From a virus, in IMG/VR virus record IMGVR_UViG_3300022589_000001: DNA of 64,000 nucleotides; one strand, written 5' to 3'. The notes below the pieces were generated by a model. It was not told the DNA's origin. It saw only the letters and a list, made by a program, of their open reading frames with translations, and ran no database searches. Shown piece by piece: positions 3,001-45,369 of this stretch; the stretch's first letter is position 1, and each line of letters starts with the position of its first letter. Made by a program: the position numbers and the translations under genes.

Positions 3001-6000
3001 TTTATTAGAGAAGGCTCAAGTTGAATTAACTGCATTAGATACTTCTAAATTAACTCTTAATCAGAAAAATGCTGTAGGAGAAATGATTAATGCAGCTATT
3101 GTTAATACAGGAAGTGCTGACGCTTTTACTAATTTATTTAATCAAATTCCAGTAGAACAAACTGATGAATTTGCAGAAGTTTTAAGTAATGTTGATTGGC
3201 AAACCACCGATATTAATCAATTAAAAGATTCTTTATATGAAGCAGGAATTAGTACAGTAGGTTTTGATGATGAATTACAAAATCTTATTGATACTATGGA
3301 TAATTCTGGTATTCAAGCTGCAGCATCTCTTGGCGCGAGTTATAAAAATTTAACTGATATTACTGAAGGATTACAAACTGGAGATACAATTTCTGCTGAA
3401 GATTATGGTAAATTGGACGAAGGAATGCAACGTTATTTTACCATGATGATGGATGGCACTTATGCGCTTACTGGTTCTGCTCAAGAATTCCAAGAATTAG
3501 TACATAAACAAGGAATTGCATCTTATCAAGAAAATATTCAAAAACTTGGAGAACAAGCAGCAGGCTATAATAGAATTAAAGGTTATGATATTGATGCTTT
3601 AAAAGATGCTCAATATGAAAAAGGTGAAGGGTATAGTAGTTCTGGAGTAAAACAGCAGTTAGATATTCTTGACGTATTGGGCTATGACCCAGAGCAGCTT
3701 GCAAAATGGCGCGAAGATGCATCAGATTTTAATATGAGCCATGAAAATCTTGATGCAATTACTGCGGCTGTCCAAGGGTATAGTCATGAATTAGAAAATC
3801 TTGATGTACTTATTGAAGAAAATAAACAAGCGGTATTTGGACAGGAAATGGCAATTGCTATGTCTTATCAGTCATTATCAGATTTGACTAAGGCATATGA
3901 AGAAGGCGTTGTTTCAGTCCAAGCTTATAATACTGCGGCGATTGCTCTTAATGAAAAAGAAGATTTAGAAGGTCTTGATACAGAAGAACTTGAAGAATAC
4001 GCTGAGTATTTACAGGAAATTTGTGATGAATCTGAAGAATTAAGCAGTGAGTTAGATGATAATGATGAAGCAGCTCGAGATGTGGCAAAAACTATTCTGA
4101 AAATGAATAAAGGAATAGAGGCTCTTGCTGAAGGATATGATGATTGGGCTGATGTTATTAAAAATAGCTCAAAAGAAAGTGAAGAATATTGTGATGCTGT
4201 AAATGGTATGCGCGATGCACTTTCTGACGTATTGGACGTAAGTGAAGATTATATTTCCAGTGATTTTATGGCAGGTCATTTGGAAGATATTAAACTTGCC
4301 GCAGAAGGTAATGCAGATGCTATTGATAGATTAAAAGCTGCTTTAGCAGACCAAATTATTCTTGATATTGTCGGCGTTGATAAATTTGCAGATTTACCAA
4401 GTGGATTGCAGACTGCAATTAATGAAATGCAATCAATTATCAGTTCTACTTCTTTAAAAGTTGGCGACACTTTAGATATGAGTGTTGATGATACTGGTTT
4501 CATTGAAGCTTGTAACGAAATTATTAAAAATGCAAATATGACCGCTGACCAAGCCAACGCTTATTTTGATGCTCTTGGCTTTGAAACTAATTTTGTAACT
4601 GAACCTCAATTACAGACTCAGCGAGTTCCAGAGTATGTAACTGAAACAATTGATGAAGGTAGTACAACAGTTACTTTAGCTGATGGAACGGAAGTTCCAA
4701 TGGTTAGAACTCGAACCAGAACTTATCAGGATGGATATTATGAAGCTGAAGGCATGGTTGATGCTATTGCAATGGCAACCAGTACTGATGGTTCTACTCA
4801 AGTACCTCAAATTCAATCTATTACAAAGAAGCCAAGTGGTTCTTCTAATAATTATTCGTCTAAAAACTCTGGTGGCGCTAAGAGTCCTGGTAGTAAAGGT
4901 GGAGGCGGCGGAGATAAAAAAGCGAAGAAAGAAAGCAAAAAATCCGCAAAAACTGAAACTGAAAGATATCATGTTATTGAAAATCAATTAGAAAATTTAA
5001 AAAGTCAATATGATGAAATTTCTAAGGCTAAAGACAGAGCATTTGGTAAAGCTAAACTTGCTTTAATGGATAAAGAAATTGCGAAGCAAAAAGAAATTAT
5101 TGCGAAGCAAAAAGAATATCTTAGTCAAGCAGAAAAGAATTTAAGTACAGATGCAGCAGCTCTTGGCAAATATAATGCTACCATAGTTGATGGCGTAGTT
5201 ACAAATTATGACTCAATGGTAGCAGCTCAAGTGCAGAAATATAATGATGCCGTTGAGAAATATAACGCTTTAAGTGCTGAGGCTCAAGAAAAATTAGATG
5301 AAGAATGGTCTAATAAGAAAGATGAAAATGGTCAATATTATAATAGCTATTTAGATTATTACGAGCGCGAATATGAAAATTTCACTGAAGCATTATCACA
5401 ATATGAAGAAACTCAAGATTTAGTTCGAGATAAGCAACAAGAAATTATTGATGCGCAGAATGAATTATATGATTTGCAATTAGAGAAAATTGACTATAAA
5501 GTTCAAGTACAAATTGATATTGAGGATGACGAATTACAATATTTAGAGTATATGCTTGAAAGAATTGAAAATAAGGCATTTAGCGCAGCCGAAGCTATTG
5601 CAAATCTTGGTCAGCAAACTCAAAGCTACATGACTAAAAATCAGGTTTATGAACAGGGCGTTAAAGACATTTTTGCTAATCATGGTTTAACAAATGAAGA
5701 TTTTAATAAGTTTAAAGCCGGTGACGAAGCTACTTTGGCAAAACTTGGTCAAATGGAGTTTACTGATGATGAAGTTCAAACTCTTCGTGATTATACTTCA
5801 AGTTTAATTGACACTAATCAATCTTTAATTGAAACTCGTCAAGCGGTTCATGATAAACTCCTTTCTGCTTTTGAGGAAATGAACGAAGAACTTGATAAGG
5901 GTATTGATAAGTTAGAAGCTTTATCAGAAATGACTGAATCTTATCGAACAATTGTTGACTTGGTTGGTAAAGCTAATTTTGCAGGTGGAAATGAAACTAT

Positions 6001-8071
6001 TGCAGAAATTAATAAGGCAACTGTTGCTCAAGCAAAAAATATCGCTCAAGCAAAAATCGCTAAGAGAGATGCGCTTGCCGCAGATATTGAATATGCAGAA
6101 AAGCAATACGCCCTTCAGAAAGATAATATTTCTGAAGAAGAGCGTAAGATGTGGGAAGATTCTATTGCTGAAATGAAAGTTCAATTAACTGAAGCTAAGC
6201 AAGAGGCAAGAGATTCCATTACCGATTGGATGGAAGAGATTAATAAAGACTTCCAAGATTCCATTACTGCGGCCCTTGATAAATTTTCTGAAACGGTAGC
6301 AGGTCGTTTCAGTAGTATTGCTGAACTTTCTGATGCTTTTGGTAGAGCACAAACTAAGAATGATAGATACCTGGAAGATTATCAGAAGATTTATGAGTTT
6401 AGTAAATTAACTCGTGATATTGAAAAATCCATAGATGATACTGATAATATAAGAGCAAAGAAAGAGCTAAGAAAACTTCTTGAAGAAATTAATGAAATTG
6501 AAGAGTCTGGTGCTCAAGTAAGTGAATATCAAGTTGAAAATCTCCGTAAGCAATTTGAACTTAAACAAGCTGAATTGGCTTTGGAAGAAGTTAAAGATGC
6601 TAAGAGTCAAGTTCGTATGACTCGCGACAACAATGGTAACTGGGGATACGTTTATACTGCTAATGACCAGGATGTAGCAGCAGCTGAGCAGTCTTATGAA
6701 GATAAGCTTTATGAACTTCAAGAGCATAACGCTGAATATATCAATCAGCTCCAAGAAAGTATTATTACAATGCAACAAGAGATGGCTGATAAGTTAGCTG
6801 AAATTGCGGCTGACGAGGCGTTAAGTATTGAAGAACGTCAAGCTAAGATGGATGAAGTTCGCAGATTCTATCAAGAGCAAATGGGTTATTATAATTCTGA
6901 GTTAAATTTAGCTTTGAATAATAATAAAACACTGTACGAAGACGATTGGATGGCATATTCTGAAAGAACTGGATATAAAATTTCTGCTGATGAAGATTAT
7001 GTTGATAGCTTTGAAGAGACTGATTATGCAATTTTAACTGGTTTCCAGAATATGGAGCAGTCTCAGTTGGCATTTAACCAAGCATCTCAAACCATGTTGG
7101 ACGAGTCTAATATAGCTTTTATCACCTGGAAAGACCAGATGAAAGATGCTTTGGATGAGGCCGATTTAAATTTTGATACTTTGAAAGAAGATATTAAAGA
7201 AGACCTTGGTGAAATTGTTGAAGAGTCTAATACAACTACTGAAGAGATTAAAGAGGATGCAAAAGAAATGGTTGAGGATTACCAAACAGTTGTAGATGCA
7301 ATTGTTGAATGGGAAACTCAATATAGCACTTCTGTTGAGCAAATGATTATTGAAAGCGATAAAATTATTACTAAATTCAATGAAGTACTTAGGCTTTGGG
7401 GAGAAGTGAAAAGCGCTGCTGAACAAGGTGTACCTGAACCTCCAAGCAGTAGTGAAACTCCAAGTAGCACCCCTTCTGGAAGCCCTGATAGTGGTGACGA
7501 TGGGATGCCACCTGATAACTCAAGTAAAGCTGAGGGTGTTGCGGCAGCCATCTGGATGGACGGCGGTGCGGCGTCTGGTTGGTATAATGGTAGCGACAGA
7601 CGTTCTCGTTTGGCTGAAAAGGGTGTTACTGCAGCACAGGCTTACATCAATGCACATGGTCCAAATGGTGACATTTATAGAACATGGGCAAGTAAGCGTG
7701 GTCAGTTAAGAAACTTCTACTATGGCTCATTTGATACTGGTGGTTACACTGGTGAGTGGGGTTCAGAAGGACGTTTCGCAATGCTCCATGAAAAAGAACT
7801 CGTTCTTAATCCAGCGGACACTGAAAACTTACTTTCTGCTGTTAACTTAATCCGTGAGATTAGCTCAATCATTGATTTGAATGCAATGAGTGCAAGCCTC
7901 GGATTGACCAGCTTGTTAGGTATCGGTAAGATCGGAACCTCAAGAGAATCTCTTGAGCAAACCGTTACTATTCATGCTGAGTTCCCAGGAGTTACAGATA
8001 GAAATGAGATTGAAGAAGCATTTAGTAATCTTATTAACACAGCTTCTCAATACGCAAACCGTAAATCTTAA
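2..8071 (+). CDS. Tail tape-measure protein, 5'-truncated at the window edge. Features: coiled-coil-rich, a Gly/Ala/Met-rich hydrophobic segment, a Ser/Pro linker, and a globular C-terminal domain.
   Basis: The reading frame is open from nt 2, so the ORF-track ATG at 35 is internal. It encodes more than 2678 aa with heptad-like K/E/A/Q composition. A hydrophobic block (MGAGAAGMTGGTMMGAGMTAAMGPIGWIIAAVTALIALFVGLAIAA) is typical of tape-measure proteins. The gene sits just upstream of the tail-tip genes and is followed by an intrinsic terminator. Confidence 0.85.
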   Translation, partial: QTVAGVRQYTQLMALMNNWDFYKQNLNTAANADGALDEQQKIYEESWEAAHKRVQAAAQTIYSELIDDEFFITLLDGFKEILEYVDHFIDALGGLKGVLSVVGTLLIKSFSNEIASKIDNIGMAIRRTAGGESASAIAMKKKAVGLTANMGSDSDTNEGMAMNEAYNARQQAQTLMLNNANRLSEAEKSTLQILMDGNKALGEQVILQGKLADEAAREADNQERSLKLKHKTLNGKTNSKKVTSYKEGMQDVGKAESISGAISNATKSLSTGKTKGSGLDGLLENAKNLQTTLGTISSNPIFKGNSNVEKTSKSVETLHRKLTEIAGKDIISQQDVDDLTRMAQQADQMVADLSMDMQENGAEDIIKSAGLKAGGKQSQDLQNLGETARDAGLKAGQASVGMTTLGQSVKTMGDYVDGAQGKVMTLGQKITAAAQTVTTTIMVFNMLKGAIDTIKDPEMTGWEKFLSIMGTVAMAIPMVVSTVTALAPAFMGAGAAGMTGGTMMGAGMTAAMGPIGWIIAAVTALIALFVGLAIAAEQNSPEAQLAKTAKTAEELSENLEEVRKEAQEIKDTFDKYDSLIDKLNNCAKGTKEWYEALEEVNNCALDLLEKYPDLAKYEGLFTRKDGMLTIDPNVVENIIKDLDNQVNSATAAALLSSADVAQKKADNLTAETRSSIGSFIGTDYTMVGQGREAHRQYETVKAGEILVEHAEELANLTEKEYETKIKALVDQAAKDVSMTEEQYQNMIKALMEDQEAINQLVRATQNAATQMDNATLALANQTLANKGYENAEVMMASMGLESQYQTIYDEIITKGRADWQSEGTTTNSKDIWKRFEEATGKDYQEIDNTVQGSAANRVYAYKDDAGKEQTFSLEYMAKTIAAHEALQDLEMSAKEAGEALVNVEQVNRQYAETMEGLDADAITAGVKDWVTTGSFGDMTEADFAGLQDVVEGAGGVDAYLQQAFGMSADELAVAFGDDYVDRFTNSMTNYTDDLSEVGKDLLEKAQVELTALDTSKLTLNQKNAVGEMINAAIVNTGSADAFTNLFNQIPVEQTDEFAEVLSNVDWQTTDINQLKDSLYEAGISTVGFDDELQNLIDTMDNSGIQAAASLGASYKNLTDITEGLQTGDTISAEDYGKLDEGMQRYFTMMMDGTYALTGSAQEFQELVHKQGIASYQENIQKLGEQAAGYNRIKGYDIDALKDAQYEKGEGYSSSGVKQQLDILDVLGYDPEQLAKWREDASDFNMSHENLDAITAAVQGYSHELENLDVLIEENKQAVFGQEMAIAMSYQSLSDLTKAYEEGVVSVQAYNTAAIALNEKEDLEGLDTEELEEYAEYLQEICDESEELSSELDDNDEAARDVAKTILKMNKGIEALAEGYDDWADVIKNSSKESEEYCDAVNGMRDALSDVLDVSEDYISSDFMAGHLEDIKLAAEGNADAIDRLKAALADQIILDIVGVDKFADLPSGLQTAINEMQSIISSTSLKVGDTLDMSVDDTGFIEACNEIIKNANMTADQANAYFDALGFETNFVTEPQLQTQRVPEYVTETIDEGSTTVTLADGTEVPMVRTRTRTYQDGYYEAEGMVDAIAMATSTDGSTQVPQIQSITKKPSGSSNNYSSKNSGGAKSPGSKGGGGGDKKAKKESKKSAKTETERYHVIENQLENLKSQYDEISKAKDRAFGKAKLALMDKEIAKQKEIIAKQKEYLSQAEKNLSTDAAALGKYNATIVDGVVTNYDSMVAAQVQKYNDAVEKYNALSAEAQEKLDEEWSNKKDENGQYYNSYLDYYEREYENFTEALSQYEETQDLVRDKQQEIIDAQNELYDLQLEKIDYKVQVQIDIEDDELQYLEYMLERIENKAFSAAEAIANLGQQTQSYMTKNQVYEQGVKDIFANHGLTNEDFNKFKAGDEATLAKLGQMEFTDDEVQTLRDYTSSLIDTNQSLIETRQAVHDKLLSAFEEMNEELDKGIDKLEALSEMTESYRTIVDLVGKANFAGGNETIAEINKATVAQAKNIAQAKIAKRDALAADIEYAEKQYALQKDNISEEERKMWEDSIAEMKVQLTEAKQEARDSITDWMEEINKDFQDSITAALDKFSETVAGRFSSIAELSDAFGRAQTKNDRYLEDYQKIYEFSKLTRDIEKSIDDTDNIRAKKELRKLLEEINEIEESGAQVSEYQVENLRKQFELKQAELALEEVKDAKSQVRMTRDNNGNWGYVYTANDQDVAAAEQSYEDKLYELQEHNAEYINQLQESIITMQQEMADKLAEIAADEALSIEERQAKMDEVRRFYQEQMGYYNSELNLALNNNKTLYEDDWMAYSERTGYKISADEDYVDSFEETDYAILTGFQNMEQSQLAFNQASQTMLDESNIAFITWKDQMKDALDEADLNFDTLKEDIKEDLGEIVEESNTTTEEIKEDAKEMVEDYQTVVDAIVEWETQYSTSVEQMIIESDKIITKFNEVLRLWGEVKSAAEQGVPEPPSSSETPSSTPSGSPDSGDDGMPPDNSSKAEGVAAAIWMDGGAASGWYNGSDRRSRLAEKGVTAAQAYINAHGPNGDIYRTWASKRGQLRNFYYGSFDTGGYTGEWGSEGRFAMLHEKELVLNPADTENLLSAVNLIREISSIIDLNAMSASLGLTSLLGIGKIGTSRESLEQTVTIHAEFPGVTDRNEIEEAFSNLINTASQYANRKS
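5078..5115 (+). repeat. Tandem direct repeat (2 x 18 nt, attgcgaagcaaaaagaa) inside the tape-measure gene. It encodes KEIAKQKEIIAKQKE.
   Basis: The duplicated 18-mer is directly visible, separated by 2 nt. Confidence 0.8.
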
Positions 8072-18790: not shown

Positions 18791-18804
18791 GGAGGATAAG
18801 GAGA

Positions 18805-19182: not shown

Positions 19183-19188
19183 TGATAT

Positions 19189-24738: not shown

Positions 24739-24751
24739 TATATAAAAAGTT

Positions 24752-24786
24752 AGCCTGGCCTTAATAGGCCAGGTTAATTTAATTTA
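24752..24786 (+). terminator. Probable intrinsic terminator. Stem cctggcc/ggccagg, loop ttaata, then a U-rich tail (ttaatttaattt).
   Basis: The hairpin lies 14 nt after the stop of the 1849-aa gene. The U-tract is interrupted, so strength is moderate. Confidence 0.5.
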
Positions 24787-24844
24787 CTATCCTCAATTCT
24801 GAAATATTGATAGGAGGATACATAAGGTAAAGGAGGTAAATGTT

Positions 24845-25804
24845 TTGGCTTACGTACAGCAATTAGGTAATTACGTAAAGTTTTTAAGAGGTACTCCTAC
24901 CGCATGGGAAAGACTTGGCGCAAAAGATGCCGATACCTTGTATTTTATTTCTAAAGATGGAGAAGATAAAGGTAAATTATACCTTGGAGATAAGTTAATT
25001 GCAGATGGTGAAAATATTACTAAAATTGAAGATTTAGAAAATGTTTTCATTGAGTCTGGATTGCCTTCTAACTCTATCTTGGTTTATGACATAAATACTG
25101 AGGGATGGGTTCCTAAGACCCTTCAAGAGATTTTTGCTCTTGTTGTCAGCGTAATGACAGGTGCGACAGCAGAAGAGAATGGTACTTCTGGTCTTGTACC
25201 TAAACCTGAAAAAGGTCAGCAGAATCTCTACTTGCGCGGTGATGCTACATGGGCTAACCCAACCGCGGCAGTCGAGTTAGACATTCAAAAACTTAACACG
25301 GATTTAACAAATGCAACAGAGCAATTTGTTCAAGAGATTAAGACCTTAAGAGGTGGCTATCCTGACACTTCTACAATCCCTCAAATTGCGCAGTCCATTG
25401 TTAGTATTGAAGTTGCAAAGCTGGTAGCAAATGCTCCAGAGCAATTTGATACTTTCAAAGAAATTGCAGATTGGTTGCAAAAACACGATAATGTTGCAAC
25501 TGTAACTCAGTTAAACGATCGTGTTGAAAGAGTTGAATTAGCAGTTTTTGGTCCTACTGATGGCAGCGTGAATGGCCTCGTACAGGACATGTCTAATGTT
25601 AAAATCGCTTTGTATGGCGACAGTGAGAACGTTGGTATTATTGCCGATGTTACATCACTTATGTCTCGAGTTCCTTCAATGGAAGGCAAGATTGTAACAT
25701 TAGAAACAAAATACAACACAGTTTCTACCGAAATCGAAAACATTAAGGATATCCTCAAGTGGCGCGATTTGGTATGGAAAGATGATGAAAATATCACAGC
25801 TTAA
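24845..25804 (+). CDS. Structural protein of 319 aa with a probable TTG start.
   Basis: The ORF track starts at TTG 24845. A strong AGGAGG lies 8 nt upstream (24831..24836). The in-frame ATG at 24840 is in another frame and hits a stop immediately. Confidence 0.7.
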   Translation: MAYVQQLGNYVKFLRGTPTAWERLGAKDADTLYFISKDGEDKGKLYLGDKLIADGENITKIEDLENVFIESGLPSNSILVYDINTEGWVPKTLQEIFALVVSVMTGATAEENGTSGLVPKPEKGQQNLYLRGDATWANPTAAVELDIQKLNTDLTNATEQFVQEIKTLRGGYPDTSTIPQIAQSIVSIEVAKLVANAPEQFDTFKEIADWLQKHDNVATVTQLNDRVERVELAVFGPTDGSVNGLVQDMSNVKIALYGDSENVGIIADVTSLMSRVPSMEGKIVTLETKYNTVSTEIENIKDILKWRDLVWKDDENITA

Positions 25805-25829
25805 TAAAGATGGAAAGGAGTAAATAGCT

Positions 25830-27689: not shown

Positions 27690-27729
27690 TTATTAAGTCT
27701 TAATTTTTATTTATTTTAGAGAGTTATGG

Positions 27730-27773
27730 AGCGGGAGAGAAGTTTTCTGCTTCTCTCCCGCTTTTCTTATTTT
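27730..27773 (+). terminator. Strong rho-independent terminator. It has a 13-bp perfect stem (agcgggagagaag/cttctctcccgct), loop ttttctg, and a U-tract (tttcttatttt).
   Basis: Read directly from the sequence. Confidence 0.85.
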
Positions 27774-27806
27774 AGTATATAAAGATAGAAAGGAGATAAA
27801 ACCGTA

Positions 27807-30800
27807 ATGACAGATAAGACAAAGTTTAGACCGGTCACCGGTCTTGATGAGTCCATCCAGAATGCGCCTAAAAATCCTGGTTGGGTATACTTCGCATCTG
27901 ATACGGGGAAAATTTACTTCGATCTTGACGTAGATACAAGAGTAGCCATGGGCGGAAGTGGTGTTTCATTACTTTATGGTGAAGCTGGTACCATTGACCC
28001 TGATGAATACTCCCTCTATCATTTAAGTTTTGATGACCTTGAGGAAGAAGTAGTTCCAAAAGAAGGAGATTTAATTCTTAATCAAGATGGAATTTTTTAC
28101 CGCGTACAAGAGGTTAATTCTGTAGAAAAGACAATCGCTTGTACTATTATGTCTGTTAGTGGCGGCGGTGGTGGAGGCGGCGGCTCTAATTTTGCCAAGA
28201 AGATTGGTATTACAATGAAGAGCTTAGCAACTTCTAACTTACTGAATGGCCAGACTTGTGAGATTTTCTTCACAGCAAACTCTGGTATTGACGTTGATGG
28301 TTCTATTATGGATGATAGACTTACTGTTAGCTGGACTTTGGCAGAAAGAATTGGTTCTGCGACTTCCGAGTATGCTAATGGTATTATCGACGTAGCAACT
28401 GGCGTAGAAGCTTCCTTCGAATTTGGTACTCGTTTACGTCAGAATGCGACATCTATTTTGACAATGTGGACACAGGGTACTAACTCTGGTGAGTCTACTA
28501 AGAAATCTGTAACTGTTCAGACTTCTGAATTGACTTTGTCCCCAAGCGCAAACTTCTCAGCTTTAACACGTTACACTCCAGACAAGGTTCTTTTACAATG
28601 TAATGCTGTTGGTTCAATGGATAAGGTGCTTGATTTCTATTTTGATGGAAATCTTATTCAGAGTAGAGTATTAACCGCTCAATCTGAAAACTTCCAAAGC
28701 TATCAGGTAGATAAAGAGATTGCTACTCATGGTAATCATACTTGTCGTATTGAGTTATATCAAGGTATTAGAACCGGTAATGTGGTAGATAGAGGCTTGG
28801 CAGTTCCTGCTCTTGAATTCGAAATTGGTGTATTCGAAGTTGGAAATACAACCCCTGTTATTTGGTTAGGCGACTACCAAGAGACATATTATAACTATGA
28901 CAATATTCAGATTCCTTTCTTAGCTTATGACCCATCAAATTCTAATCAGATTACTGTAAACTTGAAAAAGAATGGTATTGAATTACCTGGTTCTCCTCGT
29001 ACAATTGATACCACAAAGATGGATAAATGGAACTTGTTTGAAATCACTGATGCAGAGATGGAAAAACAGAACAGATATTCTATTAGTTGCGGTGATGTTG
29101 AAAGAACTATTGTTTTTGAGGTTATTCAAGACCCAACAAGAACAATGGAATATGTAAAACAAGAATCTTTATTCTTGAAGTTCGACGCTAAGGGACGTTC
29201 CAATAGTGAATCTGTTGTAAATAGACAGAATTGGGAAACCGAGGATGGCGCAATTAAGGCTGAATTCAAAGACTTTAACTGGTATAATAACGGTTGGGTT
29301 CTTGACGAAGATAATCAGACCTGTTTAAGAATTTCAAATGGCGCTGAGTTCTCATTGCCTATTGGTCAGATGACTTTTAACGATTCTACCATTGGTAGAG
29401 ATTCTAACTCTATTGAAATTCAATTTAAAGTTAGAAATGTCCAAGACTACTCTAACTTGATTAAAAACGTTACTCGTTATAGCGGTGACGAAAACTTCTA
29501 TAATGCGTTTATGGCACAGGATACATATGATAACTACGATGCATTCTTGCAGTACTGGTTGCCAATTTATCCAATCGAGAAAGAAGAAGACCGTGTAAAA
29601 TACGATGATTTGGAATTCTCTCGTGTTCAGAAGAACATTACTCTTGAAAAAGCTGTATGTAAGTATTACTCTGGCGATAATGCTGGTGCTACTGGTTTGT
29701 GTTTAGGCCCTCAGGACGCTTTCTTCTCCAATGGTACTGATACAGTTTCTGTAGACTACGTTGAAGGTAAAATGGTTTACTTAACAATGGTATTCTCCAA
29801 GAGCTCTCAGTTAATGTATATCTACATTAATGGTGTTATTACTGGTGTTATTAAAGCATCTTCTGCAGACGCGTTTACCATTGAGAGTGACAAGTTAATC
29901 TTCAACTCTAACTATTGCGACATTGACCTTTACAAGATTCGTATTTATAATACTGACTTGAATGTTAATGACGTTGTAACTAACCACTCTGTAGATAAAA
30001 AAGATGTTCTTATTTATGACCAGAACAAACTTGCAGTTGAAAATGAGTCTATCAATGAGTTCCAGTTTAAGTTTGAAGAAATGATTAAGTATAATGAAGC
30101 CCATCCTGATGCTCCATTGATGCCATATATTGTTTACTCTACTGAGTTAACTGGTGACGACAGACTTCCTTGGTCTAAGAAGACTGAAATCGCTGCAAAA
30201 ATTGAGTTCGTTAATACTGGTTTGGACGCAGCTTTTGCATCCGGCGAACTTTTAGATTTGGCTATTAAAGATGGCCTCTGCGCAGCTACTTCTGATGCAG
30301 CAACAAAAGAAGCTGCTGTTAAGACTTATTATAAACACCACTGCCCATCTTGGACTGGTGATTATTGCGAATTGGTAGTTCAGGGTACTTCTTCTGAGTT
30401 CTATCCAAGACGTAATTATAAGATTAAATTAAAAACCGATTATCATCCAAACGCAAACGAAAAGAAACTTTATCATATCTTACTGAATAAAGGACCTTTC
30501 GCTCAAGATTATCTTGACGACCAGGCTAAGCTTGCCGCAGGCGAGATTCAATATGGTAAAGAAAGTACTCGTCAAAAAGGATGGTACATGGATAACTATA
30601 CAAACGCAACTGACAGATGGACCATGAAAGTTGACTACATGGAGTCTTCTGGTTCTTACAATGCAGGTTTTGCTTCTCTCGTAGGTACTGCATATAGTAA
30701 GCATCCTCTCCAAGACTACATTAAAGCGGGCGCTTTCGCAGGTACAGATTCTATGATTACTGACGTAATTCCAGGTAATTCTGATATTCGTTGGGATGAT

Positions 30801-33800
30801 TATAGAACATCTTTGAAGGGCTTCCCTGTTCTTGCTTTCCACAAGAAATCTGATGGTTCTTACCTCTATGTAGGTATGTATCGTATGCTCTTGGATAAGG
30901 GCTCTGATGATGTTCTTGGTTTCAATCTTCCTGAGGAAGTTACTGGTAACTTCTTAGGCGGAGAAGAAATGAGCAAGATGGCTGAATGTTGGGAATTCTG
31001 TAACAACGCACGTGGATTCTGTTCTTACAGAGACCCATGGAATCGTGTTGAGTTGAGTTTTAGAGCTCCTAAGGGAGAATCCAACGAATTCACTTCTGCT
31101 GGTGCTCCTATCATTACAGATAACATTGAGTATCGTTATAATACTAATGAGGATTACATCGACATTCTTTTGAACTTGATTGATAAAGATGGTAAAGTTG
31201 CAGTAACTCCTGAGAACAACGCAAAGATTAAAGCTGAATTCGGTGATGAATACGACGTTATTGCTGACCCAGATAAGGGTCGTGAATTGATTTATAAGTT
31301 CTATAAGAACTGGGAAGACGTAAATAAGTGGGTATGGTCTACTAATACAGAAAACGTAGTAGCAGAAGGTTCTTACCAAATTGCTCCTGTCGGTGATGTT
31401 CAGTATGCCCCAGGTACTTACTATGTTTATGATGAAGAGCAGAATGCTTACGTTAAAGAAGCAGATGATTCCGTATGGGATAGAAATACTGACTACTTTG
31501 AACAGCATGAAGATGAAAACGACGAGGGCGAAACTGTAATTTCTTACGCAAAAGTTTTCGCAACAACTGGTATTTATCTCTGGTCTGAAACTACTTCCCC
31601 TGGTATGTTCTATTCTGAAAATGATGGAGCTTATACCACAATCAATAGCAAGACTTTCGATTCTGAGATTGATTACTATGAACTCGTTATTGACGAGTCA
31701 TATAAAGATAACGCAGACAGACTCGTAGAAATCTGCAATGATGAAGCATATGATGCTTCTAAAGAATACTATACTTACGATGGTAGCGTTAAGGTAGGTA
31801 CTCGCGCGACAGTTAAAGTAGATGCGGCAACCGCTGAAGCGAACTATGCGCCTGGTAAATACTACGTTCCTAAGAAAGTAAAATATGGTATTCGTGAGTA
31901 CGAGTATGATACTCAGGAATATCGTGCAGCTAAATTCGTTAATGAATTAACTGACCACTTTGACCCTGAATATCTTGCAACTTACTTCATTATGACTGAA
32001 GTTTTTGAGTGTTACGACTCTCGTGGTAAGAACTGTATGATGGCTTCTTGGGGTCCTCTCAAAGAAGGTGGAAATTACATTTGGTATCCTATCTTCTACG
32101 ATATTGATACTCAGTTAGGTATTAACAATACTGGTATTCCTTCTTTCGAATACAATGTTGACGCTACTGAAGCTGGTAACTACTCTACATCAGACAGCTT
32201 ACTTTGGAATAACTTCTATAAGTATTTCAAGAACTCTTACATTTTGATGAAGTATAAGCATTTGAGAGGTACAACAGTAGGTGTTGACTGGACCAAGTTA
32301 AAGCAACCTACTTTGGAAAAGATTGAGAATATCGAATCTTGGTACAAGTTCGAAGAGTCTGCAACAGGTTCTTTAATGGCTCGTGGCGTAAGACCTCTTA
32401 TCGCAACTAACCTTGATATGTGGTGGAAGTATATTACTATTACCAATAACAAGGGTACTAAGGATGGTTTAACTGGATGGCTGAACAGAGATGGTCAGTA
32501 CATTACAGACACCAACGGAACTTACTTCTACGCTTTGCAGGGTGACCGCTCACTCTCAAGACAGCAGTTCTTAACAAACCGTATCGAGTATATTGACTCT
32601 TGGTTGAACCAAGGTAACTACCAACGTGGTGGTTCAAATAATATTCGTGGTCGTGTGGCTGCTAATAACCCTACAAAGACTTCTGACGTATGGGTAAATA
32701 GTGTAGATACTCCTTACTACAATGAAAATGGTAGCAAGAGATATCCATTCGATGCTCAATATTGGATTGACTTAAAACCAATCCGAAGTTCTTATGTAAC
32801 AGTATCTGACGATGCTGAAGCATATCCATCACAGAAATATGATGGTATTAACCCTGTTAAGTTTGAAATTACTGCTATCCAAAACGGTGTTATGAACAGT
32901 GCTAACTACCCTGAGCAGTTGCTCTATGTTTATGGTATGAATAAGATGGCAGACCTCGGTGAAATGCATAATCTCTACTGGCAGGAGTTCGACTTAACCG
33001 GTGACGCAACTCACTTGACAACCTTAAAGCTTGGTTATGACGGCGTTGAAATTGACCCAGATACTGGCGAAGAAATCACCTGGAGAAATGATAAGATTAA
33101 CCAGCCTTCTATCCCTGGTAGTAAGGAAGATACTTTCGGTGGTATGCCACTCTTGAAAGAGGTTAACTTGTGTAATTTACAGGTTTCTACTGGTTCTCCT
33201 ACACTTGACTTTAGTTCTTGTGAAAAGCTCCAGAACTTCCGTGCAACTGGTTCTAACTTCGTAGCATTTAACTTCGCTGAAGGTGTTGCTCTTCATACTT
33301 TATACTTGCCTTCTTCTCTCACTCGTCTTGAGTTGACTGAAGCTAACTTGCTTACTAACTTAATTACTGAATACGAGGCTCCTAAGAGAGATACTCTTGG
33401 TAACTTAGTAGCAAAGAGAGGCCTTTACCTCGAAGGTATGTTTGAAGAGAATGCAACTGTAATCAATACTTTGAATTTCCGTGGCGGTAGCTTAGGCTAC
33501 GACGGATATAAGTTGTTGAATAAATATTTTGAAATTAGAAATGCTCAAAGCACAACTTCTAAGATTCAAATGACTAATGTAAACTGGTGTCCATATGTAC
33601 AATTAGTTGAAGGTGATGAATACGACCCAACAGCTAAGTACTATAAAGATGATGGTCACTATGGTTTTGTCGAGTACGAATATGATGAGCATAAGTTTGA
33701 GACTGACATCTTGAATGGCGAACTCTATAGAAAAGACACAACCATTACAGATGATGATATCAATCAGATTAGCAGTATCAATATGTTAAAGACATTCATT

Positions 33801-35270
33801 ACCGATAGTAAGTTCCAAGGTATGGCTGGTAACGTTCCTAATATCAGTGGTATTATTTATGTTAACAATACTGATGAAGCTGACATTGTTGATGAACTTT
33901 ATGTAAGAAATACTCTTGTTAAGAACTATCCTTCCTTAACATTCTTCTTCGCTAACGTGAATAAGGCTAACACTGCTAAGTTTATCATTATGGAAGAGGA
34001 CGGAACTTATAAGTATGTAGCTAATGCAAATCCTCAAAATACTGAAATTTCAGTACAAAAAGTTGCAGATGGCTCTTGGTTCTCTAACCCTTATGAGTTA
34101 TACAATCCTCAGAAGGATAACTATGACTTCCACGGTTGGTCTACAACCAACGATAAGACAGGATTAATTTCAAGCGCCGAGGCGACACCTGCCGCACAGA
34201 AAGCTGCTTGGGAGGCATTAAGTCTTGAGGAAGGAAAAACTGACTACGTATTCTACGCAGTCTTCACAGTCCATGAATGGAATGTAAGATTCTGGGCGGG
34301 ACCTTCTGAAACTCAGTTGACTGCTGTTGATGATTACACAATTGTCCATGGAGAATCTCTCTACGACATTGAAAGCATTCCTTCAATTCCAGAAACATCA
34401 CTCGGCGCTGAAGAGCGTTATCGTTTCTTAGGATGGACTCAAAATGTTAAGAATCTCATTGTTGAGAATGCCTCTACTGCTAAGGTAGTAAACGTAAATA
34501 CCATTATCGCTTCTCAAGATATGGACTTCTACGGCGTGTTCGTAAAAGAAAGCGTTTACGCTTCCGCAACTGATATGAAGTATTTTAAACCTGAACACAT
34601 TACCTACATCGACGCTTTCACTCAGGAAGTTCTCGAAGGTTGGATGTTAACTCCTAATGTAAACCTCTCTGGTAAGATTACAATTCCTACTGAGTATAAC
34701 AAAGAACCTGTTCTTCAGGTTGGTGGATTTAAGGGTTCAAACATCACTCATGTTTACTGGCATGGTACGCCTAAGGTTGTAGAAATCTTGCAGAATGGTT
34801 TTGCAGAGTGTGCAATGCTTGAAACATTCTCTATGCCTAAGTCTATGAGAAGACTTGGAGCTTCCTGCTTCTCCGGATGTAGCTCTTTGGCTTGTCCTAC
34901 TGATTTAGGAGACACTCAGATTTCTTACATTGGTAACTACGCTTACACTGGTTCCTTGAGAATTACTGATACTATTCCTGTGATGCAGTTACCTGCAACC
35001 TTGAAGCAGTTAGGTAATAACGCATTTGCGTACTTCATTAACATTAGTGCAGGCTCTGGCCCAGTTATTGAAACAGTTAACTTTGGTAAGCCAGGTAGTC
35101 CATCAGCGTTGACCACTATTGGTACAACTCCATTCGCACAGAATGAGCGTGCTATTAACAATGTTAATATCTACGTTACTGGTGGCACTCCAGACCCAAC
35201 ATTGCAGGCTACAGTCAACGACCGTATCGCTCCGGCTATCGCGGGTACCGTAAGCTATCCAAGTGCTTAA
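27807..35270 (+). CDS. Giant adhesin-like tail protein of 2487 aa. It has an N-terminal Gly8 linker, a classic LRR block, two Listeria-Bacteroides (Flg_new-type) repeats and a C-terminal BspA-type LRR_5 block.
   Basis: GGGGGGGG is encoded at 28161..28184. LRR segments read LKEVNLCNLQVS...LTRLELTEANLLTNL. The Flg_new motifs are YDFHGWSTTNDKTG...YVFYAVFT and RYRFLGWTQNV...MDFYGVF. The BspA-like block is FAECAMLETFSMPKSMRRLGASCFSGCSSL...ISYIGNYAYTGS. Confidence 0.8.
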   Translation: MTDKTKFRPVTGLDESIQNAPKNPGWVYFASDTGKIYFDLDVDTRVAMGGSGVSLLYGEAGTIDPDEYSLYHLSFDDLEEEVVPKEGDLILNQDGIFYRVQEVNSVEKTIACTIMSVSGGGGGGGGSNFAKKIGITMKSLATSNLLNGQTCEIFFTANSGIDVDGSIMDDRLTVSWTLAERIGSATSEYANGIIDVATGVEASFEFGTRLRQNATSILTMWTQGTNSGESTKKSVTVQTSELTLSPSANFSALTRYTPDKVLLQCNAVGSMDKVLDFYFDGNLIQSRVLTAQSENFQSYQVDKEIATHGNHTCRIELYQGIRTGNVVDRGLAVPALEFEIGVFEVGNTTPVIWLGDYQETYYNYDNIQIPFLAYDPSNSNQITVNLKKNGIELPGSPRTIDTTKMDKWNLFEITDAEMEKQNRYSISCGDVERTIVFEVIQDPTRTMEYVKQESLFLKFDAKGRSNSESVVNRQNWETEDGAIKAEFKDFNWYNNGWVLDEDNQTCLRISNGAEFSLPIGQMTFNDSTIGRDSNSIEIQFKVRNVQDYSNLIKNVTRYSGDENFYNAFMAQDTYDNYDAFLQYWLPIYPIEKEEDRVKYDDLEFSRVQKNITLEKAVCKYYSGDNAGATGLCLGPQDAFFSNGTDTVSVDYVEGKMVYLTMVFSKSSQLMYIYINGVITGVIKASSADAFTIESDKLIFNSNYCDIDLYKIRIYNTDLNVNDVVTNHSVDKKDVLIYDQNKLAVENESINEFQFKFEEMIKYNEAHPDAPLMPYIVYSTELTGDDRLPWSKKTEIAAKIEFVNTGLDAAFASGELLDLAIKDGLCAATSDAATKEAAVKTYYKHHCPSWTGDYCELVVQGTSSEFYPRRNYKIKLKTDYHPNANEKKLYHILLNKGPFAQDYLDDQAKLAAGEIQYGKESTRQKGWYMDNYTNATDRWTMKVDYMESSGSYNAGFASLVGTAYSKHPLQDYIKAGAFAGTDSMITDVIPGNSDIRWDDYRTSLKGFPVLAFHKKSDGSYLYVGMYRMLLDKGSDDVLGFNLPEEVTGNFLGGEEMSKMAECWEFCNNARGFCSYRDPWNRVELSFRAPKGESNEFTSAGAPIITDNIEYRYNTNEDYIDILLNLIDKDGKVAVTPENNAKIKAEFGDEYDVIADPDKGRELIYKFYKNWEDVNKWVWSTNTENVVAEGSYQIAPVGDVQYAPGTYYVYDEEQNAYVKEADDSVWDRNTDYFEQHEDENDEGETVISYAKVFATTGIYLWSETTSPGMFYSENDGAYTTINSKTFDSEIDYYELVIDESYKDNADRLVEICNDEAYDASKEYYTYDGSVKVGTRATVKVDAATAEANYAPGKYYVPKKVKYGIREYEYDTQEYRAAKFVNELTDHFDPEYLATYFIMTEVFECYDSRGKNCMMASWGPLKEGGNYIWYPIFYDIDTQLGINNTGIPSFEYNVDATEAGNYSTSDSLLWNNFYKYFKNSYILMKYKHLRGTTVGVDWTKLKQPTLEKIENIESWYKFEESATGSLMARGVRPLIATNLDMWWKYITITNNKGTKDGLTGWLNRDGQYITDTNGTYFYALQGDRSLSRQQFLTNRIEYIDSWLNQGNYQRGGSNNIRGRVAANNPTKTSDVWVNSVDTPYYNENGSKRYPFDAQYWIDLKPIRSSYVTVSDDAEAYPSQKYDGINPVKFEITAIQNGVMNSANYPEQLLYVYGMNKMADLGEMHNLYWQEFDLTGDATHLTTLKLGYDGVEIDPDTGEEITWRNDKINQPSIPGSKEDTFGGMPLLKEVNLCNLQVSTGSPTLDFSSCEKLQNFRATGSNFVAFNFAEGVALHTLYLPSSLTRLELTEANLLTNLITEYEAPKRDTLGNLVAKRGLYLEGMFEENATVINTLNFRGGSLGYDGYKLLNKYFEIRNAQSTTSKIQMTNVNWCPYVQLVEGDEYDPTAKYYKDDGHYGFVEYEYDEHKFETDILNGELYRKDTTITDDDINQISSINMLKTFITDSKFQGMAGNVPNISGIIYVNNTDEADIVDELYVRNTLVKNYPSLTFFFANVNKANTAKFIIMEEDGTYKYVANANPQNTEISVQKVADGSWFSNPYELYNPQKDNYDFHGWSTTNDKTGLISSAEATPAAQKAAWEALSLEEGKTDYVFYAVFTVHEWNVRFWAGPSETQLTAVDDYTIVHGESLYDIESIPSIPETSLGAEERYRFLGWTQNVKNLIVENASTAKVVNVNTIIASQDMDFYGVFVKESVYASATDMKYFKPEHITYIDAFTQEVLEGWMLTPNVNLSGKITIPTEYNKEPVLQVGGFKGSNITHVYWHGTPKVVEILQNGFAECAMLETFSMPKSMRRLGASCFSGCSSLACPTDLGDTQISYIGNYAYTGSLRITDTIPVMQLPATLKQLGNNAFAYFINISAGSGPVIETVNFGKPGSPSALTTIGTTPFAQNERAINNVNIYVTGGTPDPTLQATVNDRIAPAIAGTVSYPSA

Positions 35271-35287
35271 TAAGGAGGTAAAAACAA

Positions 35288-35506
35288 ATGACTAAAACAG
35301 TTTATTACGTTTACCTTGGTACGAACGGGACTATTACAAGTCCCGTTCATTTAGAGGACGTTTACTACATTCGTAAATACCTCTTGACTGCAGAAGATGG
35401 CAAAAAGCTTACTAAGGATAATAAGAATTTTGTCGATTCTGTAATGATTCCAGAAGGTGAACTTGACCTTTGGAAAGAAGTAAAGGCTCCAACTGGTCAG
35501 AAATGA
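35288..35506 (+). CDS. Hypothetical small protein of 72 aa.
   Basis: The ORF has the RBS taaggaggtaaaaacaaATG upstream. Confidence 0.55.
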   Translation: MTKTVYYVYLGTNGTITSPVHLEDVYYIRKYLLTAEDGKKLTKDNKNFVDSVMIPEGELDLWKEVKAPTGQK

Positions 35507-35554
35507 TTATTATAAACTATTCTTTTTTCAAAATTATTTGAAAGAAGAGTTGGG

Positions 35555-35598
35555 GGAGGCTGTGTTTTTCGCAACCGGCCTCCTTCAATTAAAATTTT
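35555..35598 (+). terminator. Weak candidate terminator or attenuator hairpin. The 6-bp stem (ggaggc/gcctcc) has a long loop and is followed by a U-rich stretch.
   Basis: Read from the sequence. It is poorly formed. Confidence 0.25.
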
Positions 35599-35619
35599 AA
35601 GAAAGGATTGGACGATTGA

Positions 35620-37674: not shown

Positions 37675-37713
37675 TTTTGAGCAAGATTTCGCTAAAAAGG
37701 AGGGTTTAGGCTT

Positions 37714-38310: not shown

Positions 38311-38319
38311 GACTTTTTT

Positions 38320-44964: not shown

Positions 44965-45369
44965 ATGGATTGGTTAGCATTATTATCTGATATTTTTGAA
45001 GTTTGTGTGCTTCCTCTTCTTGGCGTTTTAACAATGTATATTGTTAAGTTTATCCAGGTTAAGAGCGCAGAAATCACTGGTAAGGTTGATAATGACCTCG
45101 CAGATAAGTACATCAATATGCTTGCTGTCACCATTGAAAACTGTGTAATTGCTACAAACCAAACCTATGTTGAAGCACTTAAGCAGGCTGGCAAATTTGA
45201 TGCTGAAGCTCAGAAGACCGCATTTAATATGACAAAGAATGCCGTTATGGCAATTCTTAGCGACGAAGCTAAGAAATATCTTGAGAATGCGGTTGGCGAC
45301 TTAAATGAATATATTACTCAACAGATTGAAGCTGCTGTTAATATTAACAAGCCTGCAAAAGCTCAATAA
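44965..45369 (+). CDS. Holin-like small membrane protein of 134 aa. It has one N-terminal TM segment and a charged C-terminal tail.
   Basis: The N-terminus reads MDWLALLSDIFEVCVLPLLGVLTMYIVKFI, followed by a highly charged amphipathic tail. The RBS ttaaggaggataaatcATG lies upstream. It is the last plus-strand gene before the convergent terminator. Holin family assignment is tentative. Confidence 0.5.
   Translation: MDWLALLSDIFEVCVLPLLGVLTMYIVKFIQVKSAEITGKVDNDLADKYINMLAVTIENCVIATNQTYVEALKQAGKFDAEAQKTAFNMTKNAVMAILSDEAKKYLENAVGDLNEYITQQIEAAVNINKPAKAQ

What the first reader, a model, noticed from the sequence alone, without database searches (positions are those of the whole stretch)
27807..35270. 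2487-aa tail protein assembled from bacterial cell-surface adhesin modules
One polypeptide combines a (Gly)8 hinge, a canonical leucine-rich repeat, two Listeria-Bacteroides repeat units (motif ..F.GW.....(F/Y)A(V)F) and a BspA-like LRR_5 block (F..C..L..I.IP). These domains are typical of host surface proteins such as internalins and BspA. Their presence on a phage fibre suggests capture of host adhesin modules for receptor binding, possibly to glycans, proteins or S-layer. The central about 1200 aa has no assigned function and could hold a depolymerase.
Basis: partly seen in the sequence, partly recalled or inferred. Interest (0 to 1): 0.5.

Follow-up and report, generated by a model that had tools for sequence, protein, structure and literature searches.

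The report
Giant phage tail fibre carrying a kinase
This 2487-residue gene most likely encodes a tail fibre of a large gut phage. It has a bacterial-adhesin-type binding tip, but its conserved core is a CotH-type protein-kinase fold rather than a sugar-cutting enzyme, and it is a relative of the hypervariable tail fibre of the Bacteroides Hankyphage.

Summary
The ORF 27807..35270 (+, 2487 aa) is real. It has a strong ribosome-binding site and lies between the tape-measure gene and the holin gene of a large phage.

- The (Gly)8 stretch is present.
- The C-terminal BspA-type LRR_5 block is confirmed (Pfam 40.3 bits, cutoff 27.7).
- One Listeria-Bacteroides repeat is only sub-threshold (16.4 to 24.8 bits, cutoff 27). 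The second unit and the upstream "canonical LRR" get no profile support.

What changes:
- The protein's own C-lobe fragment gives a sub-threshold Pfam CotH hit, and one relative passes the threshold.
- The kinase-like motifs YDSRGKN and YDIDTQLG are invariant in about 247 family representatives.
- The protein is collinear over aa 227-1850 with the 2245-aa DGR-target "tail fibre" of Hankyphage. That part comprises an Ig-like region, a LamG lectin, the CotH core and an LRR-like domain. Only the tip differs.
- More than 1,600 representative relatives exist.
- The tip is the fastest-evolving and mosaic part. Its nearest bacterial relatives are at most 30% identical, so recent capture from a host is not supported.

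CotH-containing giant phage proteins have been noted in the literature but remain unstudied. This one is a variant without a DGR and with an LRR_5 tip.

The parts
27728..27764 (+). Terminator-like hairpin (16 bp stem, 8 GC pairs, T-rich tail) that ends the upstream gene and precedes this one
27788..27795 (+). Ribosome-binding site GAAAGGAG, with AGGAG 11 nt before the ATG at 27807
   Evidence: read directly from the sequence
27807..35270 (+). Complete CDS, 2487 aa: giant tail-fibre protein
27807..28160 (+). N-terminal domain, aa 1-118. It is conserved and has no family match. It is inferred to be the anchor to the tail tip.
   Evidence: no Pfam hit. The anchoring role is inference from its position before the hinge.
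28161..28184 (+). (Gly)8 hinge, aa 119-126, conserved in the family
28185..29156 (+). Beta-rich, Ig-like region, aa 127-450. It matches PHROG 14959 and 24896 (function unknown). From aa 227 on it is collinear with the Hankyphage protein.
   Evidence: The weak Big_5 hit and the Chitinase A N-terminal-domain hit are hints only.
29157..30026 (+). LamG / concanavalin-A-like lectin domain, aa ~451-740
   Evidence: Own fragment scores Laminin_G_3 16.1 bits, sub-threshold. The aligned Hankyphage segment scores 36.2 bits against a cutoff of 27.6.
30324..31151 (+). CotH-type kinase fold, N-terminal half, aa 840-1115. Invariant residues include QGTSS 859-863, N870, K872, K941 and D943.
31152..31886 (+). 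Variable beta-rich module inserted in the kinase fold, aa 1116-1360, with three 'PG.YY' hairpin motifs. It is the least conserved internal region.
31887..32666 (+). CotH-type kinase fold, C-terminal half, aa 1361-1620, and the most conserved part of the protein. It carries the catalytic-loop-like YDSRGKN (D1404, K1408, N1409) and the metal-site-like YDIDTQLG (D1432, D1434).
   Evidence: Pfam CotH scores 20.0 bits, E 5.5e-4, on this fragment. Relatives P0199 and P0247 also hit CotH.
32667..33026 (+). Conserved beta-rich region following the kinase fold, aa 1621-1740, with no family match
33027..33986 (+). LRR-like beta-solenoid plus a helical and beta region, aa 1741-2060. It is collinear with the Hankyphage protein up to aa ~1850.
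   Evidence: There is no Pfam support.
34029..34271 (+). Listeria-Bacteroides (Flg_new) repeat, unit 1, aa ~2075-2155
   Evidence: sub-threshold in this protein; 9 of 17 relatives hit
34272..34592 (+). Possible second Flg_new-like unit, aa ~2156-2262, supported by motif only
   Evidence: not supported by profile
34593..35267 (+). BspA-type LRR_5 domain and C-terminal tail, aa 2263-2487. This is the fastest-evolving, mosaic tip and the inferred receptor-binding module.
35288..35506 (+). Conserved 72-aa ORF with its own AGGAGG site, 18 nt after the stop codon. It is a possible fibre partner or chaperone.
   Evidence: 70% identical to the ORF at the same position in a 198.7-kb relative

Best explanation
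The gene most likely encodes a giant modular distal tail fibre, or receptor-binding protein, of a large (~165-200 kb) siphovirus-like gut phage. The host is probably a member of the Firmicutes/Clostridia.

Proposed layout:
- An N-terminal ~118-aa domain anchors the protein to the tail tip.
- A conserved (Gly)8 hinge gives flexibility.
- An Ig-like region and a LamG lectin provide carbohydrate contacts.
- The strongly conserved core is a CotH-type atypical kinase fold split by a variable beta-rich insert. It keeps an intact catalytic-loop-like motif and a metal-site-like motif, so it is probably an active phosphotransferase whose substrate is unknown.
- An LRR-like solenoid, one or two Flg_new repeats and a BspA-type LRR_5 domain form the distal, rapidly evolving tip that sets host specificity.

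The protein is the counterpart, without a DGR, of the Hankyphage-type DGR variable protein. In that protein the same chassis ends in a retroelement-diversified C-type lectin.

What is shown: the ORF, its synteny, the homology, the folds, and the pattern of conservation and variability. What is inferred: virion location, receptor binding by the tip, and catalytic activity.
For: Tail context:
- ORF 35..8071 matches tape-measure PHROGs, and 44965..45369 matches a holin.
- The same gene order is kept on a 198.7-kb contig.

Family:
- More than 120 collinear ~2500-aa relatives were found.
- A profile of aa 800-1740 finds 1652 representatives at E<=1e-3.

Hankyphage link:
- tblastn and BLASTP give collinear alignments over aa 227-1075 (E 5e-14) and aa 1368-1850 (E 3e-23) with the 2245-aa ORF 31489-38226 of BK010646. 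That ORF carries the DGR variable repeat at its 3' end.
- That gene is called the tail fibre, and the DGR diversifies it (PMC12135933).
- The tail proteins listed just before thymidylate synthase were detected by mass spectrometry in particle preparations.

Kinase fold:
- The AF2 model has pLDDT 75 and pTM 0.77.
- CotH is also the top Foldseek hit.
- Pfam CotH scores 20.0 bits on the protein's own C-lobe fragment, 24.3 bits (above cutoff) in P0199 and 18.1 bits in P0247.
- D1404, R1406, K1408, N1409, D1432, D1434, T1435 and G1438 are invariant in all ~247 representatives that cover them.
- The spacing D-x4-N followed by a D-x-D motif parallels CotH D228 and D251, whose mutation inactivates CotH (PMC7821199).

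Tip as specificity module:
- Against the closest relative P0002, the core is 99% identical but LRR_5 is 65%.
- Against P0003, the core is 36-75% identical but LRR_5 is 73%. The tip is therefore mosaic between lineages.
- The tip has the lowest conservation in the protein.
- It occupies the position of the DGR-diversified lectin in Hankyphage.

Host hint:
- The DNA polymerase is closest to those of phAss-1, Enterococcus phages and SPbeta-like phages.
- Relatives sit on 164-175 kb contigs binned as Clostridium and as Mollicutes.
Against: - No virion proteomics exist for this phage. The label 'tail fibre' in Hankyphage is itself an annotation.
- The Hankyphage mass-spectrometry table is ambiguous about which named row is the 2245-aa protein, and the preparation was a PEG precipitate rather than purified virions.
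- This protein does not itself reach Pfam's CotH cutoff: there is no hit in the full-length scan and 20.0 bits against 23.8 on the fragment.
- Profile-profile and HMM comparisons with Bacillus CotH sequences were not significant. The residue-by-residue equivalence with D228 and D251 is therefore by motif, not by a significant alignment.
- An extracellular virion kinase would lack an obvious ATP supply.
- Host assignment rests on weak evidence.
Confidence: 0.62

Rival explanations
1. First reader's model. The protein is a phage fibre pieced together by capturing adhesin modules (LRR, Flg_new, LRR_5) from the bacterial host, and the uncharacterised centre hides a polysaccharide depolymerase.
For: The module types at the C-terminus are those of bacterial surface proteins. 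Bacterial proteins combining Flg_new and LRR_5 exist.
Against: - The architecture is old and stable within a very large phage family.
- The nearest non-family proteins are at most 30% identical over part of the tip.
Confidence: 0.08
2. The CotH-like core is not an enzyme here. It would be a rigid scaffold or an adhesin domain, as CotH proteins of Mucorales act as host-binding invasins. The whole protein would then be a purely binding fibre.
For: - A virion enzyme outside the cell has no clear ATP source.
- Similarity to Bacillus CotH is detectable only by structure and by weak Pfam scores.
- The protein is rich in binding modules.
Against: - Catalytic-type Asp, Lys and Asn residues are absolutely invariant across ~247 divergent representatives, and this segment is the most conserved in the protein.
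- Such a pattern is typical of active sites rather than scaffolds.
Confidence: 0.2
3. It is not a fibre but a host-manipulating effector kinase, as was speculated for DGR targets of cluster PC_00012. It would act in the infected cell or be delivered into it, and the binding modules would select the intracellular or envelope substrate.
For: - The kinase motifs are intact.
- The literature speculates about manipulation of host signalling (bioRxiv 10.1101/2020.04.01.020958).
Against: - The gene sits inside the block between the tape-measure and holin genes.
- It is preceded by an Ig-like region and a LamG domain and ends in surface-adhesin-type modules.
- The Hankyphage homologue's DGR-varied end fits receptor recognition, and tail proteins next to the DGR are found in particle preparations.
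Confidence: 0.1

Closest known systems
Hankyphage (Bacteroides phage p00, BK010646) DGR variable protein, called 'tail fibre'. It belongs to the large DGR targets with a CotH domain: Roux et al. cluster PC_00012 and Macadangdang et al. 'domain group 3'.
   Same: - Giant size: 2245 aa against 2487 aa here.
- Position after the other tail genes.
- Collinear homology over aa 227-1850: Ig-like region, LamG lectin, CotH-type kinase core and LRR-like domain.
- The literature describes this combination of CotH, a carbohydrate-binding motif and LRR.
   Different: - No DGR here. There is no template/variable repeat pair anywhere in the 64-kb window, and the C-terminus is not a C-type lectin.
- The tip is Flg_new plus BspA-type LRR_5.
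- There is an extra N-terminal domain with a Gly8 hinge and a ~245-aa insert in the kinase.
- The phage is a ~165-200 kb probable Firmicutes phage with a SPbeta/phAss-1-like polymerase, not a 43-kb Mu-like Bacteroides prophage.
Bacillus CotH spore-coat protein kinase (PDB 5JD9 and 5JDA; Pfam PF08757)
   Same: - A D-x4-N catalytic-loop-like motif and a downstream D-x-D motif, as in CotH NFDGFVHN and WDYD (sequence).
   Different: - Only 9-10% identity.
- Not significant in sequence or profile comparisons with Bacillus CotH.
- Embedded in a 2487-aa structural protein and split by a 245-aa insert.
- Substrate and activity are unknown.
BspA / TpLRR / PcpA-type LRR_5 surface proteins (for example Bacteroides ovatus 4FS7, Treponema pallidum TpLRR 6MLX)
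   Same: The C-terminal ~160 aa passes the Pfam LRR_5 threshold and matches these structures by sequence profile and by fold.
   Different: It is a short block at the end of a phage structural protein. Identity to any bacterial protein found is at most 30%.
Internalin B of Listeria (LRR plus B-repeat, which is the Flg_new domain)
   Same: The order of an LRR-like solenoid followed by a Flg_new-type repeat resembles InlB 36-392. There are weak Foldseek matches over ~480-540 columns.
   Different: The matches are weak (E 0.02-0.09). Flg_new is below the Pfam cutoff, and the upstream LRR has no profile support.

Membership tests
Pfam LRR_5 (PF13306, BspA-type LRR) | Score above the Pfam gathering threshold (27.7 bits) | tested here: met
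   40.3 bits, E 3.4e-10, aa 2308-2411. 44.7 bits on the C-terminal fragment, and 16 of 17 relatives hit.
Pfam LRR_5 (PF13306, BspA-type LRR) | Fold like solved LRR_5 proteins | tested here: met
   The family profile hits 4fs7 (8e-27), 4gt6, PcpA and TpLRR. Foldseek of the AF2 model (pLDDT 89.5) gives TpLRR 1.9e-5 and 4fs7 4e-4.
Pfam Flg_new (PF09479, Listeria-Bacteroides repeat) | Score above the gathering threshold (27 bits) | tested here: not met
   16.4 bits in the whole protein and 24.8 bits in the fragment. TIGR02543 scores 9.9 bits against 20.95. 9 of 17 relatives hit at E<=0.1, best 7e-7, so the family probably has the domain.
Pfam Flg_new (PF09479, Listeria-Bacteroides repeat) | Two tandem units | tested here: inconclusive
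   Unit 2 (aa 2150-2262) has no Pfam hit at E<=5. Internal alignment score is 37 against shuffles of 27 +/- 4.6. The motif YRFLGW...FYGVF is present.
Canonical LRR (for example LRR_8 or LRR_4) at aa ~1780-1900 | Profile match to an LRR family | tested here: not met
   No hit on fragment aa 1741-2060 at E<=5, and no PDB profile hit there. AF2 predicts a short-repeat solenoid, with weak Foldseek LRR matches.
CotH kinase family (PF08757) | Score above the gathering threshold (23.8 bits) | tested here: not met
   No hit in the full-length scan. 20.0 bits, E 5.5e-4, on fragment aa 1360-1620. Relative P0199 scores 24.3 bits (passes) and P0247 scores 18.1 bits.
CotH kinase family (PF08757) | CotH atypical kinase fold | tested here: met
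   [not shown]
CotH kinase family (PF08757) | Catalytic Asp and metal-binding Asp (B. subtilis D228 and D251) retained | tested here: inconclusive
   D1404-x4-N1409 and D1432-x-D1434 are invariant in ~247 representatives and resemble CotH NFDGFVHN and WDYD. No statistically significant residue alignment to Bacillus CotH was obtained.
CotH kinase family (PF08757) | ATP-dependent protein phosphorylation | not testable with these tools
   This needs a biochemical assay.
Laminin_G_3 / ConA-like lectin (PF13385) | Score above the gathering threshold (27.6 bits) | tested here: not met
   16.1 bits, E 0.013, on fragment aa 440-760. The homologous Hankyphage segment scores 36.2 bits, aligned.
DGR variable (target) protein | A variable repeat at the 3' end with a matching template repeat and a reverse transcriptase nearby; a C-type lectin fold at the tip | tested here: not met
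   There is no direct repeat of 40 nt or more involving the gene's 3' end anywhere in the window. The tip is LRR_5. No RT-like match was seen among the ORFs that were scanned. Only the 64-kb window was examined.
Phage tail fibre / receptor-binding protein | Encoded in the tail module downstream of the tape-measure gene | tested here: met
   Tape measure at 35..8071 and holin at 44965..45369. Synteny is conserved in L004.
Phage tail fibre / receptor-binding protein | Present in virions at the tail tip and needed for adsorption | not testable with these tools
   The only evidence is indirect. Hankyphage tail proteins adjacent to the DGR were detected by mass spectrometry in PEG-precipitated particles.
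Tail-spike depolymerase | A beta-helix, lyase or glycosidase catalytic domain | tested here: not met
   [not shown]

The most novel reading that the evidence does not exclude
The tail fibre carries a catalytically active CotH-type kinase. This enzyme would phosphorylate a component of the host cell envelope, or the fibre or virion itself, as an obligatory step in adsorption or tail assembly. That would make it a virion-borne phosphotransferase, a class of tail-associated enzyme distinct from depolymerases and lysins. It is conserved in more than 1,600 phage lineages of the gut, and it is paired either with a DGR-diversified lectin tip or with a germline-encoded LRR_5 tip.
Probability: 0.3. Interest if true: 0.8.

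Novelty: new variant of a known kind. Interest (0 to 1): 0.5.

Why it matters
Giant phage proteins with a CotH-kinase domain are abundant in gut viromes. A profile of the core alone finds 1652 representative clusters. They include the DGR-diversified fibre of the very common Hankyphage, yet the literature calls them "currently unstudied".

This locus shows that the same chassis also exists without a DGR, in much larger phages that probably infect Firmicutes. There it carries a BspA-type LRR tip that evolves by divergence and by exchange of modules between lineages.

That gives a natural comparison for one open question: what the invariant kinase core does, independently of how the tip is varied. 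It also gives a clear target (aa ~800-1740) for biochemistry. For annotation, it replaces "hypothetical protein" or "possible depolymerase" with a concrete domain map.

Tried and rejected
- Megablast of the gene against 50,697 phage records gave no match.
- A full-length Pfam scan does not report CotH, LamG or any upstream LRR.
- The PDB sequence-profile search with the 39-sequence alignment finds only LRR_5-type structures.
- phmmer of relative P0199 against the PDB gave no CotH hit.
- Three attempts to align the family to Bacillus CotH were not significant, so residue equivalence to D228 and D251 could not be established statistically:
  - hhalign of the family core against the B. cereus CotH sequence;
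  - an HMM built from 271 family core segments against CotH;
  - hhalign against a 41-sequence Bacillales CotH alignment.
- The afdb50 fold library was unavailable, so no organism-level search for a structural donor of the tip could be made.
- The model coordinates are not exposed, so clustering of the invariant residues in the active-site pocket could not be checked.
- No paralogue of the protein or of its N-terminal domain exists among the neighbouring giant ORFs.
- The depolymerase idea and the DGR-target idea were both considered and rejected; see the membership tests.
- The genome-collection scan gave only two loci, both on MAG contigs of phage size, so it supports only a weak host inference.
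Full report

The ORF 27807..35270 on the + strand is open for 2487 codons. Its start is credible. A 16-bp GC-rich hairpin with a T-rich tail at 27728-27764 follows the previous gene, and GAAAGGAG lies 11 nt before the ATG. The run of eight glycines is at aa 119-126 and is part of the family consensus, with G119 invariant.

The BspA-type LRR_5 block is confirmed.
- Pfam gives 40.3 bits against a cutoff of 27.7, at aa 2308-2411.
- phmmer against the PDB finds the Bacteroides LRR proteins 4fs7 and 4gt6 and T. pallidum TpLRR.
- A 39-sequence family profile raises 4fs7 to E 8e-27.
- An AlphaFold model of aa 1741-2487 (pLDDT 89.5) matches TpLRR and 4fs7 by Foldseek.

The Listeria-Bacteroides repeat is weaker.
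- Unit 1 scores 16.4 bits in the whole protein and 24.8 bits in the C-terminal fragment. Both are below the cutoff of 27.
- 9 of 17 relatives hit at E<=0.1, the best at 7e-7.
- The second unit has no profile hit and only a weak resemblance to unit 1.

The "canonical LRR" at aa ~1780-1900 has no profile support. It is predicted as a short-repeat beta-solenoid with weak fold matches to InlB and other LRR proteins.

**2. Context**

- ORF 35..8071 (at least 2678 aa) matches tape-measure PHROGs at its C-terminus, and 44965..45369 is a holin.
- Everything between them, including this gene, is a + strand block of very large ORFs with few or no family matches.
- The - strand half of the window encodes replication functions: a Pol III-alpha/YorL-like polymerase, NrdD, a Dda-like helicase, RecJ and a primase.
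- The polymerase is about 39% identical to those of phAss-1, Enterococcus phages of ~134-142 kb and SPbeta-like Bacillus phages. The phAss-1 group is described as siphoviruses with ~3150-aa tape measures and predicted Clostridia hosts (PMC10607447).
- Relatives of the gene lie on contigs of 164-199 kb. Two of these are binned as "Clostridium sp." and "Mollicutes" MAGs.
- The local gene order 125 / ~1900 / ~310 / ~610 / this gene / 72 / ~690 / ~199 / ~2100 aa is conserved on a 198.7-kb contig.

**3. The family**

- More than 120 clusters of ~2500-aa proteins align end to end with this one, down to 37% identity.
- A profile of aa 800-1740 finds 1652 representatives at 50% clustering with E<=1e-3, and 1135 at E<=1e-10.
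- Conservation peaks at aa 1361-1480, where the majority residue frequency is ~0.9. It is lowest in aa 1121-1360 and in the last ~130 aa.

**4. The centre is a CotH-type kinase fold, not a depolymerase**

- An AlphaFold model of aa 800-1740 (16-sequence alignment, pLDDT 75, pTM 0.77) has B. cereus CotH kinase as its top Foldseek hit, though weakly (E 0.09).
- The isolated C-lobe fragment of this protein gives Pfam CotH at 20.0 bits, E 5.5e-4, over aa 1373-1481. That is below the 23.8 cutoff.
- Distant family members P0199 (24.3 bits, above cutoff) and P0247 (18.1 bits) hit the same part of the CotH profile.
- In ~247 representatives that cover the site, D1404, R1406, K1408, N1409, D1432, D1434, T1435 and G1438 never vary. 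Neither do QGTSS 859-863, N870, K941 and D943 in the N-lobe; K872 is replaced in one of 233.
- The pattern D-x4-N followed ~25 residues later by D-x-D parallels NFDGFVHN and WDYD of CotH (sequence obtained).
- In B. subtilis CotH, the D228Q and D251A mutants are inactive (PMC7821199).
- I could not obtain a significant sequence alignment to Bacillus CotH. The residue equivalence is therefore an inference from motif and fold.
- No glycosidase, lyase or beta-helix signal was found by any method.

**5. Relationship to Hankyphage**

- tblastn of the core against phage genomes finds the ~43-kb Bacteroides Hankyphages.
- The match lies in the 2245-aa ORF 31489-38226 of BK010646. The 3' end of that ORF holds the DGR variable repeat. 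A template repeat and a reverse transcriptase lie just downstream.
- BLASTP shows two collinear blocks, aa 227-1075 (E 5e-14) and aa 1368-1850 (E 3e-23).
- The Hankyphage segment aligned to aa ~520-735 here passes Pfam Laminin_G_3 at 36.2 bits. The fragment from this protein scores 16.1 bits.
- The shared chassis is therefore an Ig-like region, a LamG lectin, the CotH core and an LRR-like domain.
- The literature already notes this class:
  - a 2284-aa viral DGR target with a CotH-like domain (bioRxiv 10.1101/2020.04.01.020958);
  - Bacteroides DGR proteins of more than 2000 aa with CotH motifs, carbohydrate-binding motifs and LRRs (bioRxiv 10.1101/2024.11.15.621889).
- The Hankyphage gene is treated as the tail fibre, and its DGR is active (PMC12135933).
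- Tail proteins listed just before thymidylate synthase were detected by mass spectrometry in PEG-precipitated particles. The table does not say unambiguously which row is the 2245-aa protein.

**6. The tip**

- No direct repeat of 40 nt or more involves the 3' end of the gene, and the tip is not a C-type lectin. This protein is therefore not a DGR target, at least within the window.
- Against the closest full-length relative (P0002, 88% overall), the kinase core is 99% identical, but the LRR-like domain is 85%, Flg_new 72% and LRR_5 65%.
- Against P0003, the Ig-like, kinase and insert regions are only 36-75% identical, while LRR_5 and the tail are 73%.
- The tip is therefore both the fastest-diverging part and exchanged between lineages, as expected for a host-specificity module.
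- A search with the last 427 aa finds three fragments that are probably from the same family. Beyond those it finds only proteins of 24-33% identity. These include a Clostridiales LRR protein, one with a dockerin, and several Flg_new + LRR_5 proteins.
- The module types are thus indeed those of bacterial surface proteins, but there is no sign of recent capture.

**7. Most likely mechanism**

The shown steps are as follows. It is a tail-module gene. It is homologous to the Hankyphage fibre. It has lectin-type and LRR-type binding modules. Its kinase fold has invariant catalytic-type residues. Its tip is variable and mosaic.

The inferred steps are as follows.
- The N-terminal 118 aa dock to the tail tip.
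- The Gly8 run acts as a hinge.
- The C-terminal LRR_5, with the Flg_new repeats, binds the primary receptor. This is the role filled by the DGR-varied lectin in Hankyphage.
- The CotH core is an active phosphotransferase.

Its substrate is unknown. It could be an envelope component, or the fibre or virion itself during assembly in the ATP-containing cytoplasm, by analogy with CotH patterning the spore coat.

They are weighed in the fields above.

**8. Novelty and score**

The kind of protein, a giant phage protein with a CotH domain, is already described in surveys but has not been studied experimentally. New here are a variant without a DGR and with an LRR_5 tip in ~165-200 kb phages that probably infect Firmicutes, and the demonstration that the kinase motifs are invariant across the family. 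I rate it a new variant of a known kind, with interest 0.5.

Noticed in passing
window 35288-35506 (+): A 72-aa ORF with its own AGGAGG site starts 18 nt after the fibre's stop codon. An ORF of the same length sits at the same place in a 198.7-kb relative and is 70% identical, which is more conserved than the fibre itself (59%). It could be a fibre chaperone or partner. A GC-rich inverted repeat follows at ~35552-35585.
   Followed up: partly
window 35-8071 (+): The tape-measure protein is at least 2678 aa; the listed ORF starts 35 nt from the left edge of the window, so it may extend further left. At the usual ~1.5 A per residue this implies a tail of roughly 400 nm. That is an inference and was not tested.
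   Followed up: partly
window 8078-27689 and 35620-44527 (+): There is a run of very large ORFs (1592, 916, 918, 1849, 619, 684 and 2023 aa) with almost no Pfam or PHROG matches. Only weak 'tail' or 'tail fibre' PHROG hits appear for 16034-18790, 24845-25804 and 38456-44527. The tail tip of this phage seems unusually elaborate.
   Followed up: partly
window 35620-37674 and 37714-38310 (+): These two adjacent ORFs share a homologous ~175-aa segment (28% identity, E 4e-17). This suggests a local duplication or a shared domain.
   Followed up: no
window 31152-31886 (aa 1116-1360 of the fibre): The insert inside the kinase fold contains three 'PG.YY' motifs (aa 1203, 1266 and 1350) and is predicted to be beta-rich. 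It is the most variable internal part and is nearly replaced in some relatives (7-20% identity). There is a weak CshA_repeat hint (E 0.044). It may be an additional binding module.
   Followed up: partly
window 52074-55955 (-): The Pol III-alpha/YorL-like DNA polymerase is closest (39%) to that of phAss-1. That group is reported to read TAG as Gln in late genes. The giant late ORFs of this window are open in the standard code, so no recoding is evident here.
   Followed up: partly
window 19160-19200 and 25801-25841 (+): A shared ~41-nt motif containing GATGGAAAGGAGTAA precedes the start codons of ORFs 19189 and 25830. It may be a common translation-initiation or regulatory element of late genes.
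   Followed up: no
window ~45000-46500: The sign of the GC skew and the coding strand both switch here, just after the holin. This marks the boundary between the structural and lysis block and the replication block.
   Followed up: no
tblastn result (records not listed in the output): Two Bacillus megaterium phage records also match the kinase C-lobe. They were not inspected. They may hold a further branch of phage CotH-domain proteins in a cultured system.
   Followed up: no
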